Below are positions 1,000 through 58,817 of a stretch of DNA of 64,000 bases, one piece after another. A model generated the notes under the pieces. It saw only the letters and a list, made by a program, of their open reading frames with translations, did no database searches and was not told the origin of the DNA. This stretch comes from Microthyrium microscopicum (lineage: Eukaryota), in assembly GCA_010405405.1 (NCBI GenBank), contig MU004230.1, positions 1,398,627-1,462,626 on the forward strand, given 5' to 3'. Every line of letters starts with the position of its first letter. Positions within the stretch are counted from its first letter, which is position 1. The translations under genes and the position numbers were made by a program.

Positions 1000-2590
1000 T
1001 TAATCTAAACTCCTTAAATTAGTTTAGTAGCGCTAAGATAGGACTAGCTTAATGTCTATTTAAATAATATTCTATTAATCCATAGATCTATAAGTCTAAG
1101 AATGTTGTTAGAAGAGCATATCCTAAAGGTGCTAAAGCTATTAAAGTTAATAAAGTTAAATAAATCTCTAGCATAGCTATAGGTAGTAAAATACTATATA
1201 AATCTATCTATATTATTAGCATATCTTTAAATCTATAATACTTACTAAATAATACTAATTCTTTACTAGTAGAGTTAATCTAGCACCCTTTATAATAGTA
1301 AGAATTATAAGAATAGCTAGAATCATAAGAATAGTAAGAATTATAGTATCTAGAGTTATTTAAGGAAGCCTACGACGTTAATAAGATAGCTCTTACGTAA
1401 ATACCCTATGGTAGAGCATATTTTAGCTAAAATCCTAACTTTAACTTTATAATAGGGTTATAGGCATAGGAATTAGGCTAAAGGACTAATTCTTAGTAAA
1501 TGCTATCGCTGTTACTATAGGATCTCTAGCCCTAACTATAATATAAGGATATACGCCAAAATAGTACTATACTACTATCTTTAGATTAGTTTATACTAAT
1601 ATCGCTATTATAGAGCTAGCTAGAGCCTTATTTACCCCTCTCTTTATAGTAAGTAGTTTCTACTATACTAGTACCTAAATTTCTTATTTTTATAACTCTA
1701 ATATCTTTATTACTAGTACCTTTAAGTAGGGGAAGGAAGTAGAACCTTAACTAGGGCTAGCTATTATTAATAATAGTATTATAGTATTATTTAGAGAAGA
1801 TTAATAGTTATAGTAGTATTAGTAGTAAAGTACTAATAGGATAGAAGACATAGTAGTAGTATAGTGTTTCTATCTTATTTAAGATAAAGAGAAATCTTAG
1901 TTAGGAATTAGGACTTGTAAGATTATCGTGTATAGTAGTAGTAGAGAGGGTAATTCTATAGCGAATAGTAGAGAGAGATAGTCCTTTAAGCTATAATATT
2001 CTATATAATAAGTTTTAATAGGCTCTTAATTAATTTAAACTTATGTAGACTTATTATAATAACGTTATTAAAGCTAAAAAGGATACCTCTAAAACTAAGA
2101 GGATATAGAAGGATAATAGTATAATAACTCGCGAGAATATTACTAAATAATACTTAGAGAAGGGCACCCTATTAATTAATATTCCTTTAGATAGCAATAG
2201 CGACGTTAAAGAATTATCTATAGAAACGTTAGCTAGAGTATAAGATATAATTAAATAGCCTAATCCTATAGGCTTAAGCGCTACCCCTTTAGTAATTCCT
2301 AGCTCTTTAACTTTAATAACTACTTAAGAATTAGGTTTACGTTTAAAGTATAAGAAGCTTAAATAATCTTATATACCTAAAGACGCTATTATAAGAATAT
2401 CTAATATAATTATTAAAGCTCTTAGAGACTATAATAAATAGTATAGTAGTATTACTAATAATTCTATAAGTAGTAGTAGTAGTAGTAGTAATAAAAGAAG
2501 TAAAGTTATAGGCCTAAGGGAAAAGGTAAATAGATTACACTTAGAGATAATAGAGATAAAGAAGTTATTAAAGGAGTCTTTAGGTTAATT
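1000..2590 (+). pseudogene. RIP-mutated second ORF of the Harbinger-type element; boundaries approximate
   Basis: The plus-strand frame around 2190-2588 still reads as protein with scattered stops (...KDAIIRISNIIIKALRDYNK*...SSSSSSS...GLREKVNRLHLEIIEIKKLLKESLG*). It is convergent with the transposase. Two ORFs are typical of this superfamily. Confidence 0.5.
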
Positions 2591-2709
2591 ATAGTTATAA
2601 AGGTTAGGCTAGTATTTCCTATATAAATTAGTAGTAAAGATAGAATCTAGTTTTTATAGAAATATTATAATAGATACTAAAAGCTTTAAAAGTATATAGA
2701 AGGGTTAAA

Positions 2710-4040
2710 TAATTAGCTAACCCTACCCTATTAATTCCCCTTCTTTAGTAAGAATATTTAACTTTACTTCATAACTTTAATATCTTTAATAAATATATAA
2801 CTATTCTATATTGTTTAAATCCTCTTATTAAAGCAATTCTAATAGTGTCTAGTTATTAAAGATACTACTAGGATTTAAATACTTATTAATTATTAGTAGT
2901 TTAATAGTAAATTAACTCTTAATAAGATTTCTCTACTATAAGGCCGTTTAATAGTTTTGAAGTAATACTAACATAGTTTAATAATAGATAATAGGCATTA
3001 AACTTATCCTTATATTATGTTAATAGTCTAACGTACCTTCCTACTAAGAGTTCTTTAATATTATAAATATCTACTTAATAGTAATATAGAATCTAGATTA
3101 TTTAAAGTTAAAATTCTACTACCAAAGTAGTAATTTAGTACCCTAGTATAGTAAAATAATTATATCGTTATATAGATATATAGCGTTGCTATATAATAGC
3201 TTTTTTGGACTATTACTAAATATTTGTTAAATCCTATCTTTAAGACCTAAGTCTATTAATATTAAGAGGTTATTTAAGGATCTAAAGTAGCTATAATTAA
3301 GTGCTAGCAATATCCTATTAGGTATAGTAATAGCTTATATTTTTATATAGTAGTTTTCTTTATAACTACTATAAAACTCCTACTATATTTAGTTACCCTT
3401 TAGTCTACTAATATTAATATAAGTTCTATTAATCTAGCCTTAAAATTTAGGTACTCTACTAGTATAATTAATAGCCTTAGTATATTATTTATATCTTGAC
3501 GCTATAAGGAGAGAATAGAACTATAATAGCGTCTCTATATATTTATTATATAAGTAAATTATTATAGCGTTAAAGTAGAACTTTATATATACTATACTTT
3601 GTCTAAAGTGCTAATAAATGTTAATATAGGTATAAATTTAAGTAAGTCTATAGTATACTATATAAAATAGGAAATGCTATTTATTTAGAGGTATAATTTA
3701 ATATAGTAAGGGGACGTTATTAAGATCTAGCTTCTTTGCTAATATTTATATTTTATGCTTCTTAAAACTATTATATACTAATTAATACTATAGGTATTAC
3801 TTTAAGCTAATTTAGTAGTATACTAATATTTAACTTTATATATCTAGCTAGATTTATCCTTAAGATTCTAATCATAGTAGTAGTACTTAATTATAGGCCT
3901 ATATTTACCTTCTTATTACTCTTCTTTTAGCAACTTATAAAGTAATATTACTAGAATACTAAGAGTAGCTATCTTAATATCGTCTTTAATAGTATCTATT
4001 TTAGGTTAGGATTAATAGAGATATGTTTAAGATACTATGG
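2710..4040 (-). pseudogene. RIP-mutated DDE (DDE_Tnp_4/Harbinger-like) transposase; boundaries approximate
   Basis: Minus-strand translation near 3445-3355 reads F*G*INRTYINISRLKGN*I**EFYSSYKK, which de-RIPs to FWGWIDGT..I.RP.....QQEFYSGHKK. Near 3200-3065 it reads LLYSNAIY...W**NFNFK*SRFYITIK*IF, which de-RIPs to LLYGDA.Y...QQ.FN...SR.RI.VE..F. These match the catalytic D..D..E motifs of Harbinger transposases. Confidence 0.75.
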
Positions 4041-50505: not shown

Positions 50506-50645
50506 AGAAGCTTTGCTCTTGTGTGGTTAAAATGTTAGAAGCGTGGTGTTGTAGACTTGGTACTTAGTCGTAATGTGATAATCACTCCTCTAGGAGGTTT
50601 AGGGACATTTTGCTCGATAATGTTTTGAACAAGAATTGCATTTCA

Positions 50646-53352
50646 TTATGCTATTGGTCGACTGAAATCTTGAAGCTCATCGTCCAAGTGCGCCACCACG
50701 TTGTCATATACAGCTTGCCGAAATGCATCGTCGTCCAAGTCGTAGTTACGGATTCGCGGATCCAAGTTACAGTATAAACAGCTTTTCACTACACTCTCAT
50801 ACCTCATACCTGCTTCCTCCATCAACAGTCCTGACTTGACGAGTCGAACTGCAGTCGTATAGTCTGCATAAAGTCCTTTGTTTCCAGCTTCTGCGATGTC
50901 TTCGGCTGTCCTGAGCTGCTTTATAGACTGCCCAAAGCAGATCTCGATCAAGGTAATACCGAGCGCAAAAAGTGTTGTATTATGAATAAACGACGGCTTG
51001 TTGGCTTCTATTGTTATTACTTCGCTGGACAGATCTCGAAGTACGAATAGTTGTTTGAATAGAGATGGTGCTTCCTTCCTGTCCAGAAGTGTTATATCGT
51101 GGCTTCCAAAGTAGGAACTAACCCAGGGCGATTTGTATAGATATAAAATGGCGTTTCCTAAAGCCGCAGACATGGAGAGCTTGTCTATCCGCCTTGGTGC
51201 TGGTGTGTTAGGGAACTTCCGTTGTAAAATATCATCGAAAGAGTATATTGATTCAGGCTTGGTAGCGTATGATCTGCAGAGAGAGATGTCAATTTCGATT
51301 GAACCGTCGGCGATGGACCCGATATAATTTGACGACTTGACTGCAAGTTGGTTTTCTTTGAACATGGCGCATATGCTCTGAATGGCGACCTTGGTCATTT
51401 GCTGCTGAGATATCACAACCGAGCTGTTATTTGAAGCCTGTGGCACAAGAGTGGAGGAACTGGATGATTTCTGTTTCAATCCGGGATGGGTTGTCCATTG
51501 AACCTTTTTCTTGACAGGCCGATTCGAAATTTGAGTTGGGTTTTGAGCTCCCGTTGTGGCTTGTTGCTCAACAGGTCGGATTCTACATGTAGTTTCTGTC
51601 CACATGCCTAGGAAAATGTCAGTATGAGACGCGAAACAGTGTTTTCAGAGCCAAGACGAGCTGAAAGGATCGCATGATCTTTTTGGTAAGATATTCCATC
51701 GTATGTGATGGGCGCCATCGAATGCGATGGGAGCCACTGCGTGCTTTGGTATTGACAGATATTGTGAAGACATAGATAAAAACCATATCGTCAACGCCGT
51801 CACCAGAAAAGCCGACTTGGTCTACCTACTCATGGTGATCCTCCATCGCACTCCATGGTAGCCATCGAATCCAATGGCGGCCATCGAGTGCTATGGGAGC
51901 CATCAGATGTGATGGGAGTTGTCAAGAACTAGAAAAACGTGGATCGGTCGCTAAGGGGGCCTTACCGGGTGCCTTCTGGTGTGATATAAACGCAATCTTT
52001 AACGAGTTGTCCGAGTCAGTTGTGTCTTCTTGATATCGACAGAGCTGGAGAGCAACCATGTGTTTGTCGACACCGCAGGTGCATTGCATCGCTTTGACAG
52101 CACGATACAGGCTTTGCGCATAATTTCGAAGGCCCTTAAATCGATCGCCCTGTGATCTCTTCCGGCGAGAGCTCTGTAAAACGGATGTCTGCCTCGTCAA
52201 CCCCTGAAGAGCTCTGTTGTGTTCTCGCAATCGCTGTACCAGTTCTTCATAAGAACTCTTGCTCAGACTGAATCGACCTAGAAATAGTCAGTGCGGTTAC
52301 GAAGTCGCATCAGTCAGATCATATTTTCCACTGATGGTAAAATTGTAAAACCATTCTACGGGAGCCGGCGAGAGCGATAGAAATATCTCTCCAGATCAAT
52401 ACCTATTTTGATAAATCCAGGCGAGTTCAAGATACCTCTAGACATTCGAAAGACTCATATGGGGACCATCGCTTTCGATGGCTCCTATAGAGCGTGTTTC
52501 TGATAGACTGATATGGTTACCATAATGAATTGGTAGCCAGTGAATGGTGTGTTGTAACATAAACGTATGCTGTCAGTAAAAATGTTGGCTTACCTATCTT
52601 CCAAGCTTTTTTGAAGCTCATATCAGGTGTTGTCATCCAGAGAATTGCTCCATCGTCATCTAGATCAAGTTTATCTTTAAACTCGTTCACGGCATCTTCC
52701 ATGGCACATATTCGTTCCAGATACACCTTGTAGGCAAGAGCCAACCGCTTTTCGAGCTTATTTTGAATAATAGGATCATCCCAAGCATCACCTAACGGTT
52801 ATCAGATTGTTCCACATCACGTTTTGTGATTGAGCTGGACTTACCTCCTGGCGCGGCAAGCATTATTTCCATCTCCTTGGAGCTAGCGATGCCATCGAGC
52901 AGCATCTCACAAGTATTGCGATACGTGATGCTTTCTGTTTCCAGTTCCAGAATCAGAGTTTTGAGTTCCCATTTGTAAGTCAGCATGCGTCGAACTGTAC
53001 GCACCCCATCGGCATAGTGCTCCAACGCTGAGATCACCAATGGAATGCCTGACATCGTTAGTTTAGACTCTCCAGATCGATGAGTAGACGAAATAGTTGG
53101 CAGCTCCCATCAAACACGTTGTCTACCATCGCACTCCATAAAGAGAAGCAAATGTGACCAGCGTATCCCCGAAGAAGATATTGAGCAGTCCGTGTGAAGT
53201 GTATCAAGGGTAGACAATGCACCTCAAGGAGCGTTTCAGTCAGATTTCGACCCGGTATGATAGGTAACAAGCAGAAATAGAAATGACCAGAAGTGTAAGA
53301 TAGATGGCGCCTTACTTCCTAAAACGGCACCTGCCACCTCAAGACCGGACAT
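50646..53352 (-). CDS. Hypothetical protein with a HeLo-like N-terminus and a degenerate kinase-like C-terminal domain; introns 53049-53315, 52792-52844, 52278-52593, 51608-51965
   Basis: All four introns have GTAAG donors, branch-point-like motifs and YAG acceptors, and they join in frame. Spliced product: MSGLEVAGAVLGSIPLVISALEHYADGV...APGGDAWDDPIIQNKLEKRL...KIGRFSLSKSSYEELVQRLREHN...APGMWTET...LGNAILYLYKSPWV...LFALGITLIEI...YESVVKSCLYC. Confidence 0.8.
51696..51918. repeat. Intronic tandem arrays of a 19-bp palindromic unit, CCATCG-N4-CGATGG-N3
   Basis: Two units at 51696-51733 and four units at 51843-51918, each with exact 19-bp period. Further copies lie at 52466-52484 and 53107-53141. 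Confidence 0.8.
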
Positions 53353-53763
53353 ATTTCGTAATATTCACTAAGAAGTTGAGTTTGAAAGAGTATATGACAA
53401 AAGACTGGTGGCGGAACACAATCTGGCGTGATCAGCTCAGCGTTGGCGTTCTCAGACTACAAAGCCGAAAATGACAGTATAATAGCCAGTCCTTTGATGG
53501 TAGTTTTGGACAACATACAACAGACAGATTCAAAATATAGGAAGTCTTTGGGAAGCTTTGCAGCAATACGAAAAGGAGGCGGGATACAAGACTCCAGGAA
53601 TAGAAATACCCCTCAGTGATATGCATGAAGGCGTATCAAAATGAGGCTGACCGGTCACAAACCCAAAACCCCGTTACATAACCTGAGTACAAGAGCAGTA
53701 ACTCGGAAACGTCGATTGCTCACTGCCAAAATCCAGGAACTCAGGATCAACCCTCTTTCAACC

Positions 53764-56700
53764 ATGCTTATATCAGATCAGGTCGAGGACTGTCTCAAAT
53801 GTTTCACGTCTCTTTTGCATGTCCAGGAAGACGAAAGCTCTCAGGATGTGGCATCCAACTTAGACTTGATCGAGACGTTCGATCGCTTCAAAATATGGAT
53901 GAATAACATAGGTGCAGGCCGAAAAGGCCCAGCTTCATTAGATCACAGGCTACGCGATGCATCTCACGTCCAGAGTCTTGCTTCGACTCTCTTGAGCAGT
54001 ATCACGGATGCTTTGAAGGAAGCAATCTCAATTGCAAAAGGAGAAGCAGAGACTTTGGATTACGAAGATGACGACAGCTCAGACGAGTCAGACGCAGGAG
54101 AACTTGGTATTACAGCGCGACCTTCGGAGCTCGAGCAAATTATGGCACATATATCAAATTCGACTAAATGCCTTATGAGACTTTCTGTAGCCATTCGACA
54201 TCCGGCTCCACATGACAGGTTTATGCGATCTGGAAACATTGATACCTCAGCATTTGAACCCTACGACATTGCTCACGTTCGGCACAAGTTCCCAAAAGCC
54301 GAGAATTTCTTGATCGATCGTCTCGGAAAGGCAATATCAAGGCGGCGCCTGTACTTGAAGTATCGAGCAAACCATAAGGAGAAACTCTTAAGGGACCACA
54401 AAGGCGAGGATCAAACCGTGGCTTCTTCTCTACCGTCGAAGATTGAAAGCTTGAACATTAACGACTTACAAGAGTTCAAAGATACTCAGTCCGAAGCTGG
54501 ACTGTCTATGACATCCTATGCGACTACCAAGGCGGATCAAAACACCGTGCTTTCAGTACCAAAGATGCCTGAGGAAGGCGGTGCTGACGATCCCTTCGAA
54601 TGCCCTTATTGCTTTGCAATGACCGTGGCGAGTAGTAGGCCCGCGTGGAAGTAAGTCTCCCTGATCAGCTCTAATTTGATTCGCTCTTCAGAGTCATGAT
54701 GTTCTTCAGAACAACTGACTAATTGTAAACTACGGTAGGAGGCATGTCTTCACAGATCTACAACCACATCTTTGCCTTATTGAAGGTTGTGTTGGCCCGG
54801 ATCGAATGTACTCTCGACGGCATGACTGGATATTACACCATAACACTCACAACGATAGTCGATTTGCTTCTCAGTTGACATGTCCTTTATGCCAACAGCA
54901 ATCTCCTAGTCTTGATCGTCTCTTCAAGCATGTTTCAGGCCACCAAGAGCAACTTGCATTGTTCGCGCTTCCGATGAGTGACGATGGTCCTCATGCTTCC
55001 GATGAGGAGGAAGACGAAGAAGAGGATCTTGAACCCGCAAGTTTATTCCGAGATCAGCCTTACTCCTGCCGCTTTTGCGGGCAGGACTATGTGGACGCGG
55101 AAGATTTTGCCTCCCATCTTACACCAGGTGGCCGTTGTGAACGTGGTGTAGTTTTAGGACGAGCGGAAGACGATCAATTCGACATAGTAGAAGAGGCTAA
55201 GAAGTTAGATGGCGAAGTCAAACACTCAAGCCCAGATGATGATATGCTGCAGGCGCCAATCACATTCAAAGACGCTGTTGGTCGTAAATTCAGTTTCCCA
55301 TGGCATCTATGCAAGTCATGGAAGGTATGTTGTCCACCTATTAAGACGATTCTGATCTACTATAAGAATACTAATGCTCATGTAGGGTATGGAGCAACTC
55401 GTTCAGCAAGCATTTTTACAATTCGGCCCAATTAGTCAGCATGTCGTAGACGGTCACTTCGATCTGATCAGTTCAGACGGTAATGTGATTCTTCCTAAAG
55501 TCTGGGAAATTATGGTCAAGCCCGATATGGCGATCAGCATGCACATGTGGCCCACCGCTGAGCCGCTTGTGACGCAGTTACTTGACCAAAAACCAGATCA
55601 AGATGGTAAGTCAGCCTACACTCAGTCAAATTATTCACGATAGTTCCGAGCCAAAACTGTAATTATATTGTTCAAGGCTCAAGCCTCAGGCTATTGCAGT
55701 TCGGCTCAAGATCAAGTTTCTCCTCTAGAATACCCCGGATCTAGCGCTTGTTCTGTCAGGGGAATAGGAACTTATGAATATGATTCTAGTTCACATCGCG
55801 TGGTGTTGGAATTCTCTTCTTGCTGACCATTATTGCTAACTTCTCGAATCTATAGCGTTGTCTGAGATTCGGAACCTACCTAGGTACCTATATAGGAGTG
55901 AGAGGGAGGCACCAGCGAAGGCCAACGAAAAGTACGAGGCGCACAATAGACCCGCCTACACGATGTATTATGACTCCCAAACAGGAGAGGAAGTACCTGA
56001 TACTCGGAGTACAGGCAACATCACGAGCGAACGAGCAAGATCAACATCAGGATCGCGATCTCCAAGGTTTAGTAGTCCGAGTAGAGAACAGTCAAATGAA
56101 TGGGCTCGTGAGCGGCCCATTGCTACTGCTACTTGGGAAGCCCTTGCTGTTAGGCATGACGAGCAAAGCTCCGGTGATCTTGAAAAGGGAAACCTCCCAC
56201 CAGATGCCCGTTGGACAAAAATCGACCGAACGCTGGTCAATCCAGAAGCGCTTCTCGAAGCGAATGAAAGATTCGAGGAGCGCTTGGATTGTGTTATTGT
56301 ACTGCGGGTACTCACAAAGCAGGAGATCCAAGACCTAGCAGATCGCACAGAGAGAATACGTGCCAACCGCAATACGGACTCCCAAGCTGCACCTGGTAAG
56401 TATCATGGAAATGCGAGGAACGCTGACATAGCCAGCGGGAGGGAGTTGCCCGAATCATCAAGGTGGAGATCTCGAACAAACCGAAGGTCAAGCAGCGAAG
56501 AGTCATATGATCGAACTCGTGAGCGACACCTTGCTGCTGGTGCTCTTGCTGGCGCCAGCGCTGCTGCTATTCTCAGAAATGTCAACTTTACCCCGGAACA
56601 AGAAAAAGCGAGATTGATGTCCAGATCAAGATCAAGGTCAAGATCCCCCAGACTCAGCAGCCGAGGCGTGGACGCCTCTAATGATCAAAATCGCGCCAAG

Positions 56701-58181
56701 CGTCTGGCTGCCGCTGCCATTGCAGGTGCTAGTGCTGCTGCTTTTGCCGCTGGGCGCCAGAAACAAGCGGACCTCCCACTTCAATCAAATATTGGGCCAC
56801 CATCTTCTAAGATGCTTCGAATGCTACCTGGTTCCCAAACGACTCCGTCTAACCCCCATGTTGGTGGTGAGGAATTACTAGGGAAAGCAGATGATCCTTA
56901 CCCCAGAGACCAGCGCAGACGCACTGTTGAAATTGGAGACACGACTTGGGGCGGCGGCCCTCCAACAGCTGTTGCACTCGACCGATATAATGATCGTATT
57001 CGCGCAGAAGAAATGAAGCAACAGGAAGCCGCCGTCAGCAGTTCTACCGAGCTGGAGGCTGGTCAAGAACAGCCGACTCAGAACTCGAGACGTAGGTCCC
57101 AAGATTCAAATGATGAGGCATATTCGTTCACGAATCCGTTGGAGATGTATCGAGATACGGAGCCGCGTGGCCCTCGACATAAAAGCAGCCGCTTAACTGT
57201 AGATGACGATTCGGTTGATCCACTTGACCTAACACTTTTACCACGATCACCTGATATCTCACCACCCAGAAGGATGTTGGAACACCGTGTCACTAGAGCT
57301 AAGGCTCCAAAACGACAAGCGTACTACGAGTATGACCGGATTCAACAAGAACCGGTGCCTGTTAGCGATACAGTGCATCGGTATCGATGCTTAGAAGACT
57401 GGGATTGCAAGAAAGGGGCCAAAGGATTTTCTCGGTACAATGACTTGAAGCGGCATGTGATGCGGGTTCACAGCAAGACATCGCAGGAGTTTGAGCAATT
57501 ATTTCCCAGAACAGGGCAGGTCAACGTCTTGCAACTCAGTCAAACACATCGGTACTCAATTTCTGGCGATAAAGCGGACAGTATTGAACCTTCGTCTCCA
57601 AACCCTAACGTAACGCGCCCGACTGGCCACGGAGAACCAAACGAGGATGATGCTCCTAGAATGTACCCCGGCATGGGCCGTGAAGCCGCGCAAGCTGCTT
57701 CAACTGGAAGACCTCGCTTGCAAAGTTACCCAGATAATGCTCTAAGGCTAGAAGGAGGAGGAGGTTCTTCAATTCCTATAGAGCGTGAGCGTACGCCTTA
57801 TGATCCTATAGAGCGTGAGCGTAAGCCTTATGTTCCTATTGAACGTGAGCGTAAGCCATATACAGTTGTTCAGGGCAGCGCAAAGTTATACGAGGATGCA
57901 GTGTTGCAACCATTATCCAATACACCCGGACGGCCACCACGGCGTCGTGAAGCACATACAGCTATGCCGTGCGTAAACTGTACGAGAGCCAAACTAAGCT
58001 GTGATGAAGCGAGGCCATGTAAGCATTGTGTATCTACTCATCAAGAGGCAAGTCTAGTCGTGTTTGAGGTCAAGGGTAACACTAACTTCATGAATAGGCA
58101 ACATGCGTTGACATAGAGCACAAGAAGCGTGGCCGACCAAGAATACAACCCAAGCCAGAAGTCAGAGTCGAGGATTTCTGA
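53764..58181 (+). CDS. Large mosaic protein: helical N-terminal domain, C2H2 fingers, ubiquitin-like domain, further fragments, C-terminal Zn2Cys6; introns 54651-54738, 55325-55385, 55606-55855, 58048-58097 (GC-AG)
   Basis: Exons join in frame. Segments in order: FKIWMNNIGA..SLDHRLRDA; FECPYCF..WK|RHVFTDLQPHLC; PITFKDAVGRKFSFPWHLCKSWK|GMEQLV; ARWTKIDRTLVNPEAL; YRC..C..GFSRYNDLKRHVMRVH; PCVNCTRAKLSCDEARPCKHC..|ATCVDIEHKKRGRPR. Confidence 0.75.
57775..57864 (+). repeat. Coding 30-bp tandem repeat, 3 copies (PIERER[T/K]PY[D/V/T])
   Basis: CCTATAGAGCGTGAGCGTAAGCCTTATG-like units start at 57775, 57805 and 57835. Confidence 0.9.
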
Positions 58182-58817
58182 CATAAACTTGGGGAACGGC
58201 GAGAAGCTGAGGTCGAGGTTGGTGGCTTTGGCATCCGAAGAGATCCAAGCGAACGTGACGAGCGGCGTCACGACCTACAGAGTAAAGCCTTGAGCAGCCG
58301 CGAGGCACCGAGTCGCTCGAGTGCGCTATACGAAGAGGATTATCGTGGGGTTGGCATAAGAACAAGCTCAATAGAGAGCAGTGAGGAGCGTGGCAGAGAC
58401 AAGTCACCTGCTGACAAACGAAGTTTGTCAACGGAGGGCTTTGGTTCAAGATGGGAGGGAACAAGGAGGCAGGACGCCGAAGAGTTGGCCTAGACTTATG
58501 CTCTTTATATTGCCGACAAGAAGAGGGAGCAATCGTAGTGGGTGTTGTCAAAATATATACCACTAGCAATAATATTAATACAATGCTGAGGTAATTCCTA
58601 GAGAGTTCAAAAGGACTGTCGCGTTTTCGAGGGATAGTTAATCTCTAAACTGACCTAATGAATAGAGTGCTCTTTTTCTGGTAAATTGCGTTTAGGATTC
58701 ATGGTTTTGTAGGAGACAGCGGTGGATCTATCTCTTTCATTTGATACCCCATAAATGTGATAGCCCCCTTCTTTGTGAAGAAACATCAACTCTTTGCCAG
58801 CCATTTGAATGCCTAGC

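What the first reader, a model, noticed from the sequence alone, without database searches (positions are those of the whole stretch)
50646..58493. Head-to-head pair: HeLo-like/pseudokinase-like gene facing a mosaic multi-domain gene (candidate fungal sensor-executor module)
Seen in sequence: two non-housekeeping genes are divergently transcribed with ATGs only ~410 bp apart (53352 and 53764), between core genes. The minus gene starts with the hydrophobic, Gly-rich helix MSGLEVAGAVLGSIPLVISALE. It ends in a domain keeping kinase C-lobe-like elements (LGNAILYLYKSPWV..GSHDI, LFALGITLIEI, YESVVKSCL) with no recognisable HRD/DFG. Established knowledge: HeLo/HELL domains kill via such an N-terminal helix, MLKL is a helical bundle plus pseudokinase, and fungal cell-death effectors are often encoded next to their activator. 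Inference: this may be an MLKL-like executor paired with a modular sensor, i.e. an undescribed two-gene non-self-recognition or cell-death system.
Basis: partly seen in the sequence, partly recalled or inferred. Interest (0 to 1): 0.8.

Follow-up and report, generated by a model that had tools for sequence, protein, structure and literature searches.

The report
Conserved fungal pseudokinase–partner gene pair
Two back-to-back fungal genes, one built like the animal cell-killing protein MLKL and one a modular zinc-finger protein, turn out to be an ancient linked pair whose products are predicted to bind each other, which points to an undescribed two-protein signalling or cell-death module.

Summary

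RNA-derived contigs show that the plus gene is one spliced transcript (1322 aa). It carries an AcuF-type N-terminal module, ULD_2, DUF8035 and Zn2Cys6.

The main new result is the linkage. In 80 metagenomic loci holding a relative of the minus gene, 67 have a relative of the plus gene's first ~375 residues head-to-head upstream, and 2 have it in tandem. Only 2 loci with more than 1 kb of upstream DNA lack it. The two proteins are predicted to bind: ipSAE 0.76, best control 0.00.

Elsewhere the partner's C-terminus is swapped for HET, caspase, RhoGEF, ARID or PHD in the same ORF. NACHT/NB-ARC repeat regions lie directly downstream, with the join unproven.

HeLo membership of the bundle is unproven, and killing is untested. 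Verdict: a real, apparently undescribed two-gene module, with its function inferred.

The parts
50646..53352 (-). Minus gene, 570 aa. Exons: 53352-53316, 53048-52845, 52791-52594, 52277-51966, 51607-50646 (stop included).
   Evidence: Model built; all four introns are GT..AG. All four appear as joints in RNA-derived contigs. The database protein P0001 is identical except for 20 residues.
51966..53352 (-). N-terminal helical bundle, about residues 1-210, starting with the hydrophobic Gly/Ala-rich helix MSGLEVAGAVLGSIPLVISALE.
   Evidence: AF2 model with alignment A1: helices 3-35, 37-63, 87-122 and 153-209, with pLDDT mostly above 90. There is no Pfam hit. In the ESM Atlas, 7 of 30 feature hits are HeLo clusters, score 0.94.
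50667..51398 (-). DUF7580 (PF24476) match, a degenerate kinase fold. The Pfam domain starts further upstream in full-length relatives.
53353..53763 (.). Shared 411-bp intergenic region (bidirectional promoter). It holds TCAGCCTCA/ATGAGGCTGA and AACCCCGT.
   Evidence: Gap measured. Comparable gaps of 259-586 bp occur in 30 distinct loci. Two k-mers are enriched across 48 such regions.
53764..58181 (+). Plus gene, 1322 aa. Exons: 53764-54650, 54739-55324, 55386-55605, 55856-58047, 58098-58181.
   Evidence: Model built. Joints skipping 88, 250 and 50 nt are seen in RNA-derived contigs, and one contig joins the ULD_2 exon to the DUF8035 exon. The 61-nt intron rests on a loose end only.
53764..54980 (+). 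Conserved partner module, about residues 1-375. It contains the RFxVWxGNIGA, SLDxRLRD and AIRNPAPHDRF motifs and the first C2H2-like fingers (AcuF type).
   Evidence: This is the only part of the plus protein found next to DUF7580 genes in other loci. In the Atlas, 22 of 30 feature hits fall in sets carrying PF26082 zf-C2H2_AcuF. It holds the predicted interface.
55250..55556 (+). ULD_2 ubiquitin-like domain, split by the 61-nt intron.
   Evidence: Pfam PF22893: 36.9 and 64.5 bits on the two exon pieces, cut-off 24.5.
56209..56361 (+). DUF8035 core (RWTKIDRTLVNPEAL...VLRVLTKQEIQ).
   Evidence: PF26118 is precomputed on P0179, the ORF-only database model of this exon. 208 homologs match this short stretch.
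57964..58140 (+). Zn2Cys6 cluster, interrupted by the GC..AG intron at 58048-58097.
   Evidence: Pfam Zn_clus scores 19.1 bits, below the cut-off of 21, on the unspliced ORF. Splicing restores the sixth Cys. The joint is seen in RNA contigs.

Best explanation
The locus is one copy of an ancient, co-inherited two-gene module of Pezizomycotina.

Gene 1 encodes a protein with MLKL-like architecture. It has an N-terminal helical bundle whose first helix is hydrophobic and Gly-rich, a long connecting helix, and a catalytically dead kinase-fold domain (DUF7580).

Gene 2 encodes a modular protein. Its conserved N-terminal ~375 residues (AcuF-type module) are the cognate partner, and its C-terminus is freely exchanged between lineages. 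In this window the tail is ULD_2 + DUF8035 + C2H2 + Zn2Cys6.

Shown here: the fold, the linkage, transcription and splicing of both genes, and parallel divergence of the two genes.

Predicted: the partner module docks across the bundle (helices 2-3 and the long helix) and the pseudokinase C-lobe.

Inferred: this contact holds or switches the bundle, as the pseudokinase does in MLKL. The partner's variable tail supplies the input. Where that tail is an NLR, HET or caspase domain, activation or oligomerisation of the partner would release or cluster the bundle, which then attacks a membrane (regulated cell death or non-self response). The two genes share a ~400-bp promoter and so are made together.
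For: Fold:
- AF2 with 100 relatives gives pLDDT 85 and pTM 0.79.
- Foldseek's listed rows are all kinases, E 1.0e-3 to 3.9e-3.
- No catalytic motif except the HRD-position Asp is conserved.

Linkage:
- 64 of 80 loci have the partner head-to-head by tblastn. An HMM adds 3 more, and 2 loci are tandem.
- Of 61 loci with at least 1 kb upstream, 58 have it.
- The 64 collapse to 47 distinct pairs.
- No third conserved gene is present.
- Pairwise identities of the two genes correlate: r 0.84 over 561 pairs of 34 loci, with 0 of 2000 permutations as high.

Binding:
- ipSAE is 0.76/0.75/0.76, and the best of 3 controls is 0.00. The mark was reached by 51 of 78 solved complexes and 2 of 108 mismatched pairs. 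The runs share at least 81% of contacts, and partner pLDDT is at least 62.
- The partner's interface residues are more conserved than the rest of the protein: 2.91 vs 2.49 bits, p 0.003.

Immune flavour of the partner:
- HET (L069), caspase (L079), RhoGEF (L032), ARID (L001) and PHD (L002) lie in the same ORF as the conserved part.
- NB-ARC+TPR, NACHT+ANK, NACHT+DUF7791 and SesA+ULD_2 lie directly downstream on the same strand.
- zf-C2H2_AcuF is listed with HET among the most copy-number-variable families in N. crassa strains (PMC13412767, passage seen).

N-terminus: 7 of 30 Atlas feature hits are HeLo clusters, score 0.94 with 179 of 256 shared features.

Expression: both genes are spliced in run X1.
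Against: - The bundle is not a demonstrable HeLo/HELL/SesA member. None of 43 full-length relatives gives a significant Pfam hit; there is one weak HeLo hit, E 0.13.
- hhalign against one SesA domain gives probability 0.2%.
- The A1 profile finds no HET-s or MLKL N-terminus in the PDB.
- The Atlas structure search gives no HeLo cluster; the best TM is 0.49/0.63, to an unnamed cluster.
- The fold searches barely tested residues 1-197, because the kinase domain filled the lists.
- No kinase is part of the module, so MLKL's phosphorylation switch has no counterpart.
- Many partner tails are DNA- or chromatin-binding: Zn2Cys6 in the window; ARID and PHD in the same ORF as the conserved part (L001, L002); Zn2Cys6 and Myb in downstream same-strand ORFs whose join is unproven (L057, L068). 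This fits gene regulation.
- Interface residues of the DUF7580 protein are not more conserved than the rest: p 0.075 with A3 and p 0.96 with A1.
- The complex was folded without alignments, and the calibration for eukaryotes is weaker: 39 of 65 solved pairs and 2 of 126 unrelated pairs reached the mark.
- The loci were picked by two N-terminal peptide patterns and come from unnamed metagenome contigs with duplicates.
- Run X1 is labelled RNA only as a guess; its RNA origin rests on the spliced joints.
Confidence: 0.5

Rival explanations
1. A regulatory pair without killing. The partner is a transcription or chromatin factor (C2H2 fingers, here also Zn2Cys6), and the DUF7580 protein is its dedicated pseudokinase scaffold or anchor that controls its location or activity. 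The shared promoter is autoregulated.
For: The conserved core of the partner contains C2H2-like fingers. Partner tails include Zn2Cys6 (the window; also a downstream same-strand ORF in L057, join unproven), Myb (downstream ORF in L068, join unproven), ARID (L001, same ORF) and PHD (L002, same ORF). ACCCCGC/GCGGGGT occurs in 23 of 48 intergenic regions against 2.0 expected, mostly sense to the partner gene and 110-330 nt upstream of it. From my own recall, GCGGGG-type sites are typical of C2H2 factors such as CreA/Mig1. Predicted binding fits this reading equally well.
Against: It does not explain the HET, caspase, NACHT/NB-ARC-repeat and SesA tails, nor the hydrophobic Gly-rich first helix and the HeLo-like language-model signal. 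The finger spacing is non-classical and no DNA binding is shown. The Zn_clus score is below Pfam's cut-off on the unspliced ORF.
Confidence: 0.3
2. An allorecognition or toxin-antidote type locus. The pair is kept together because one product neutralises the other, and allelic or copy-number variation causes incompatibility between strains.
For: The linkage is tight with parallel divergence and binding is predicted. AcuF-type genes are copy-number-variable in N. crassa alongside HET. One DUF7580 gene without a partner sits alone in AT-rich, gene-poor DNA (L015).
Against: No population data were examined. The window copy lies between ordinary genes, and no extra copies occur in the window or in any locus. 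This is a special case of the main explanation rather than a separate mechanism.
Confidence: 0.12
3. Two functionally unrelated neighbours that merely share a bidirectional promoter.
For: Neighbouring genes alone often score in complex prediction: 7 of 44 blind neighbours reached the mark in the tool's own test.
Against: Adjacency survives divergence to 17-40% protein identity in 69 of 80 loci, including two loci rearranged to tandem order. The complex score is 0.76 against 0.00 for controls.
Confidence: 0.05

Closest known systems
MLKL (animals) and plant MLKLs (AtMLKL1-3)
   Different: Sequence similarity is undetectable: the best PDB profile hits are E 0.049-0.13, and to other pseudokinases. 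The N-lobe is reduced and carries a ~70-residue disordered insert. The family has invariant Cys/His residues. There is no upstream kinase; instead there is a dedicated non-kinase partner encoded head-to-head. Killing is untested.
Fungal HeLo/HELL effectors with adjacent NLRs (HET-S/NWD2, HELLP/PNT1)
   Same: Both are two-gene clusters in filamentous ascomycetes. A helical N-terminal domain with a hydrophobic first helix lies next to a gene that can be an NLR (review PMC12881547: passages and section 18 read).
   Different: No amyloid/prion-forming motif was looked for or seen. The effector ends in a pseudokinase, not a prion domain. Coupling is predicted to be a folded heterodimer interface. 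Most partners are not NLRs. HeLo/HELL HMMs do not match.
Fungal 'HELL domain plus kinase/pseudokinase' proteins, mentioned in one sentence of PMC12881547
   Same: The review states that some HELL domains are part of proteins with a kinase or pseudokinase domain, reminiscent of MLKL.
   Different: That sentence names no family, partner or gene pair. DUF7580 and PF24476 were found in no paper. I cannot tell whether the review means this family.
Pfam DUF7580 (PF24476) and zf-C2H2_AcuF (PF26082)
   Same: The minus protein is a clear DUF7580 member. The partner's nearest Atlas clusters carry zf-C2H2_AcuF.
   Different: Both are only names without function. Their pairing, the kinase fold of DUF7580 and the predicted complex appear in no paper that my searches reached.

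Membership tests
Pfam DUF7580 (PF24476) | HMM match above the gathering score | tested here: met
   70.8 bits on the last exon and 72.8 bits on P0001, against a cut-off of 27.
Protein kinase-like fold | Two-lobed kinase fold recovered by structure comparison | tested here: met
Active protein kinase | Conserved Gly-loop, beta3 Lys / alphaC Glu, HRD..N and DFG | tested here: not met
   Columns at least 90% conserved in 100 relatives include none of these. The exception is D401, which is invariant in A2 and A3 and lies at the HRD Asp position.
MLKL family | Pseudokinase domain preceded by a helical bundle and a connecting (brace) helix | tested here: met
   The AF2 model has helices 3-209 followed by the kinase fold at 198-550. 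This shows architecture only.
MLKL family | The N-terminal bundle is a 4HB/HeLo-superfamily domain | tested here: inconclusive
   7 of 30 Atlas feature hits are HeLo clusters. Against this, 0 of 43 relatives give a significant Pfam hit, hhalign against a SesA domain gives probability 0.2%, and the fold search did not cover this part of the model.
MLKL family | Membrane permeabilisation and cell killing, switched by an upstream kinase | not testable with these tools
   No experiment was done. No kinase gene is conserved in the loci.
Pfam HeLo (PF14479) / Helo_like_N (PF17111) / SesA (PF17107) | HMM match above the gathering score | tested here: not met
   None of the 43 full-length family members scanned reaches it. 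P0089 gives HeLo at E 0.13 and 12.5 bits, against a cut-off of 23.2.
Fungal NLR/effector amyloid-signalling clusters | Shared short amyloid motif at the effector C-terminus and the NLR N-terminus | not tested
   No motif search was run. The effector ends with the folded C-lobe helix at 524-546.
zf-C2H2_AcuF (PF26082), partner | HMM match | not testable with these tools
   The model is not in the Pfam copy held here. Indirectly, 22 of 30 Atlas hits fall in sets carrying PF26082; the row shown lists it on 16% of its members.
ULD_2 (PF22893), partner | HMM match above the gathering score | tested here: met
   64.5 and 36.9 bits on the two exon pieces, against a cut-off of 24.5.
Zn2Cys6 (PF00172), partner | Six Cys in CX2CX6CX5-12CX2CX6-8C spacing; HMM above cut-off | tested here: inconclusive
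   19.1 bits against a cut-off of 21 on the unspliced ORF. The spliced reading restores the sixth Cys, but I did not scan the spliced protein.

The most novel reading that the evidence does not exclude
Filamentous ascomycetes carry a widespread MLKL-like death executor (helical bundle plus zinc-stapled pseudokinase, DUF7580). It is controlled not by a kinase or an amyloid but by a dedicated heterodimeric adaptor encoded head-to-head. The adaptor's exchangeable tail (NLR, HET, caspase, transcription-factor or GEF domains) acts as sensor or integrated decoy. This would be a third, previously unseen way of wiring receptors to a 4HB-type pore former, and it would suggest that the MLKL bundle-plus-pseudokinase design is far older or more recurrent than thought.
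Probability: 0.3. Interest if true: 0.9.

Novelty: new variant of a known kind. Interest (0 to 1): 0.8.

Why it matters
Fungal regulated cell death is known mainly from HeLo/HELL effectors triggered by amyloid templating and from gasdermin/protease pairs. A bundle-plus-pseudokinase protein with its own conserved, physically coupled partner would add a new signalling logic. It would also give a function to two large 'unknown' families: DUF7580 has 1444 clusters at 50% identity, and the other family is zf-C2H2_AcuF.

The module is only two genes with a predicted interface, so it is directly testable in yeast, Neurospora or Podospora. It also bears on how MLKL-type architectures arose in animals, plants and fungi.

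Tried and rejected
- Folding the DUF7580 exon alone without an alignment failed (pLDDT 32).
- phmmer of that exon against PDB sequences gave nothing better than E 1.
- The word-index search for longer relatives of the last exon found none. The exhaustive search then found the family.
- No whole genome is held for this window, so paralogue counts and genome-wide linkage in this species could not be done.
- The search for related loci rejected alignments A1 and A2 for lack of a conserved stretch. An 8-sequence alignment worked.
- hhalign of the bundle alignment (A5) against the single SesA domain of L073 showed no relation. One template gives low power.
- The fold searches could not speak for residues 1-197, because the kinase domain filled all rows.
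- The Atlas structure search for residues 1-212 found no named fold.
- RNA: only one run was listed, labelled 'RNA?' as a guess, and no holder is on record as RNA. I treat it as RNA-derived only because 8 joints coincide with introns. Depths are not used to rank expression.
- I considered whether the enriched intergenic words are coding sequence (an N-terminal extension from the in-frame ATG at 53641). I rejected this because their positions and strands vary between loci, and the start at 53764 aligns with the starts of relatives.
- I considered splitting the plus gene into two genes, as the database ORF model P0179 suggests. I rejected this because one contig joins the exons across the 250-nt intron.
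- Earlier findings of this scan: four look-ups returned nothing.
- Papers: DUF7580 gave 0 papers. acuF + aculin gave 0. DUF8035, PF24476, AcuF-like and PF22893 gave 0, and PF26082 gave 1. Supplements were not read.

Full report
**What is there**

The window comes from the dothideomycete Microthyrium microscopicum. The name comes from database protein P0001, and the lineage was checked.

On the minus strand I built a five-exon gene: 53352-53316, 53048-52845, 52791-52594, 52277-51966 and 51607-50646. It encodes 570 aa, and all introns are GT..AG. Contigs of one public run (X1) laid on 50600-58500 show joints that skip 267, 53, 316 and 358 nt at exactly these introns. X1 is labelled RNA only as a guess. 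I treat these contigs as RNA-derived because they are spliced.

The database model P0001 (550 aa, 'DUF7580 domain-containing protein') is the same protein without 20 residues, VALQLCRYQEDTTDSDNSLK. No joint for that extra 60-nt intron was listed. The removed segment aligns with a conserved strand of relatives. I therefore prefer the 570-aa form.

**The plus gene is one gene**

Its exons are 53764-54650, 54739-55324, 55386-55605, 55856-58047 and 58098-58181 (1322 aa). Joints skipping 88, 250 and 50 nt are seen. One contig carries 216 letters of the ULD_2 exon joined to the DUF8035 exon and runs on to beyond 58500. The last intron is GC..AG. The 61-nt intron is supported only by a 14-letter loose end with one mismatch.

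The database holds an ORF-only model of the large exon (P0179, 717 aa). The spliced contig argues against that split.

Domains found: C2H2-like fingers and ULD_2; DUF8035, precomputed on P0179; and a Zn2Cys6 cluster that scores below Pfam's cut-off on the unspliced ORF and is completed by splicing. The CDS ends at 58181.

**The minus protein**

The last exon matches Pfam DUF7580. An exhaustive search found 1444 cluster representatives at E ≤ 0.001, with the best non-self hit at 38% identity. Full-length relatives share both the N-terminus (MSG[LF]E[VI]AG..PL.ISALEHY) and DUF7580.

With 100 relatives as the alignment, AlphaFold2 gave pLDDT 85 and pTM 0.79. The model has:
- long helices at 3-35, 37-63, 87-122 and 153-209;
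- a disordered insert at about 228-297;
- an alpha/beta domain.

A profile of the family weakly hits the plant pseudokinase-type domains SIRK1 (E 0.049) and NFR5 (E 0.13) from alphaE to alphaF. That alignment places the invariant D401 on the HRD aspartate. No Gly-loop, Lys/Glu pair, catalytic Asn or DFG is conserved. Instead C212, C214, H219, C310, W392, G447, Y500 and C507 are invariant or nearly so.

**The N-terminal bundle**

No Pfam family matches it in any of the 43 full-length relatives scanned. The only signal is one weak HeLo hit, E 0.13. The language-model search on residues 1-212 put HeLo clusters in 7 of its 30 hits (score 0.94, 179 of 256 features). Its structure search named no family. 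hhalign against one SesA domain was negative. The fold searches did not cover this part. HeLo-superfamily membership is therefore open. What is shown is a confident helical bundle with a hydrophobic, Gly/Ala-rich first helix in front of a pseudokinase.

**Linkage, the main result**

A scan of metagenome contigs used two N-terminal peptide patterns from the eight closest relatives. It matched 349 stretches; 198 encode a relative, and the best 80 were kept.

Counts over the 80 loci:
- tblastn with the spliced plus protein found a relative of its residues ~1-375 directly upstream on the opposite strand in 64.
- An HMM of the partner alignment added 3 more (L045, L049, L071) and showed 2 loci (L052, L078) with the partner downstream on the same strand.
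- Of the 11 remaining loci, 8 have under 350 bp upstream and one has 506 bp.
- Only L015 and L053 have ample upstream DNA and no partner. L015 is a GC-normal island in AT-rich, ORF-poor DNA. L053 has a divergent N-terminus and other neighbours.
- Of the 61 loci with at least 1 kb upstream, 58 have the divergent partner.

The 64 collapse to 47 distinct pairs at 90% nucleotide identity. The gap between the first aligned codons is 259-586 bp in 30 of them, against 411 bp in the window. No third gene family recurs. Neither gene has a second copy in any locus or in the window.

Pairwise identities of the two genes correlate (r 0.84, 561 pairs of 34 loci, 0 of 2000 permutations as high). This shows parallel descent. 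It does not by itself show co-evolution.

**The partner is modular**

Only residues ~1-375 are conserved. This stretch holds the RFxVWxGNIGA, SLDxRLRD and AIRNPAPHDRF motifs, RLGKAISRRRQYLKYRE, and then the CPxC..H fingers. Its nearest Atlas clusters carry zf-C2H2_AcuF (22 of 30 hits).

Tails in the same ORF as the conserved part:
- HET (L069)
- Peptidase_C14 (L079)
- RhoGEF (L032)
- ARID + DUF2408 (L001)
- PHD (L002)

Tails in downstream ORFs on the same strand, where the join is not proven:
- NB-ARC + TPR (L069)
- NACHT + ankyrin (L058)
- NACHT + DUF7791 (L064)
- SesA + ULD_2 (L073)
- Zn2Cys6 (L057)
- Myb (L068)
- BAG (L005)
- an ATG8-like piece (L024)

The window's own tail (ULD_2, DUF8035, Zn2Cys6) is thus one of many. 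DUF8035 recurs only in L037/L039/L040, which are one sequence seen three times. ULD_2 recurs in L073.

**Predicted binding**

P0001 with the partner's first exon (295 aa) scored ipSAE 0.76, 0.75 and 0.76, and the best of 3 controls scored 0.00. The mark was reached by 51 of 78 solved complexes and 2 of 108 mismatched pairs in the tool's calibration. For eukaryotes the figures are 39 of 65 and 2 of 126. The runs share at least 81% of contacts, and partner pLDDT is at least 62.

The interface covers:
- on the DUF7580 protein: 36-76 and 164-177 (bundle), and 369-371, 490-500 and 541-550 (C-lobe);
- on the partner: 36-49, 66-83 and 119-154, which are its most conserved motifs.

Interface residues are more conserved than the rest in the partner (p 0.003) but not in the DUF7580 protein (p 0.075 and 0.96). 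This supports binding but does not show it.

**Shared promoter**

Across 48 intergenic regions, ACCCCGC/GCGGGGT occurs in 23 against 2.0 expected. The highest count for any 7-mer in 100 shuffles was 13. GGCTGAG/AGGCTGA occurs in 15-16 against about 3 expected. The first word is mostly sense to the partner gene. The second often forms an inverted pair 40-110 nt apart. The window has TCAGCCTCA and the near-match AACCCCGT.

**Interpretation**

Shown: architecture, fold, transcription and splicing, and ancient linkage. Predicted: a heterodimer that bridges the bundle and the pseudokinase C-lobe.

Inferred: the partner controls the bundle the way MLKL's own pseudokinase and RIPK3 do. Its tail provides input, and the output is membrane attack where the tails are NLR, HET or caspase domains.

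The main rival is a non-lethal regulatory pair of a transcription factor and its pseudokinase scaffold. The DNA-binding tails and the promoter motif support that reading.

**Literature**

A 2025 review notes in one sentence that some HELL domains sit in proteins with kinase or pseudokinase domains (PMC12881547: passages and section 18 read). Wojciechowski et al. describe MLKL-like N-termini of fungal NLRs (PMC9815663: passages only). A N. crassa pangenome paper lists zf-C2H2_AcuF with HET among the most copy-number-variable families (PMC13412767: one passage).

Searches for DUF7580 and for PF24476, DUF8035 and AcuF-like found no paper. I found nothing on the gene pair itself, though I ran no search for the pairing as such. 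Supplements were not read.

**Verdict**

The bundle's HeLo membership and any killing activity remain to be tested.

Noticed in passing
window 52507-52594 (minus strand): An alternative joint skips only 86 nt from the exon-3 donor. Read through, it gives a stop after 7 more codons, so the product would be a 153-aa bundle-only isoform. It could be non-productive splicing, or a short form lacking the pseudokinase.
   Followed up: partly
window 51997-52056 (minus strand): The database model P0001 removes 60 nt (20 aa) as an extra in-frame intron. No such joint was listed in the RNA contigs, and relatives have a conserved strand there.
   Followed up: partly
window 51690-51915, inside intron 4 of the minus gene: Two arrays of a 19-nt unit (CCATCGAATGCGATGGGAG-like) are present. 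Contigs diverge at 51714/51717 (loose ends), which suggests a dispersed repeat sitting in the intron.
   Followed up: partly
window 58182-58493 (+): A 103-codon Arg/Glu/Ser-rich ORF lies in frame directly behind the TGA stop of the plus gene. The transcript contig runs through it unspliced. It may be a recent nonsense change, read-through, or chance.
   Followed up: no
window 53641 (+): An upstream ATG lies in frame with the plus gene: 41 codons with no stop. The main transcript contig starts at 53740, and relatives align from the ATG at 53764.
   Followed up: partly
P0001 residues 212, 214, 219, 310, 507 (window minus gene, exons 4-5): C212, C214, H219, C310 and C507 are invariant or nearly so across the family. 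This suggests a structural metal site tying the reduced N-lobe to the C-lobe. I had no coordinates to check distances.
   Followed up: no
intergenic regions of 47 loci and window 53353-53763: The enriched words are ACCCCGC/GCGGGGT (23 of 48) and AGGCTGA..TCAGCCT inverted pairs. They are candidate shared regulatory elements.
   Followed up: partly
L015:1-16048: A DUF7580 gene without a partner sits as a 45-48% GC island in 31-40% GC DNA. In the flanks scanned (about 5.5-10 kb upstream and the 4 kb downstream) there are no ORFs of 120 aa or more.
   Followed up: partly
window 2001-4000: A 2-kb stretch has only 23% GC, far below the rest of the window at 44-53%.
   Followed up: no
window 57780-57860 (+): Three tandem copies of a PIERER(T/K)PY(D/V) peptide unit lie in the plus protein, just upstream of the Zn2Cys6 cluster.
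   Followed up: no
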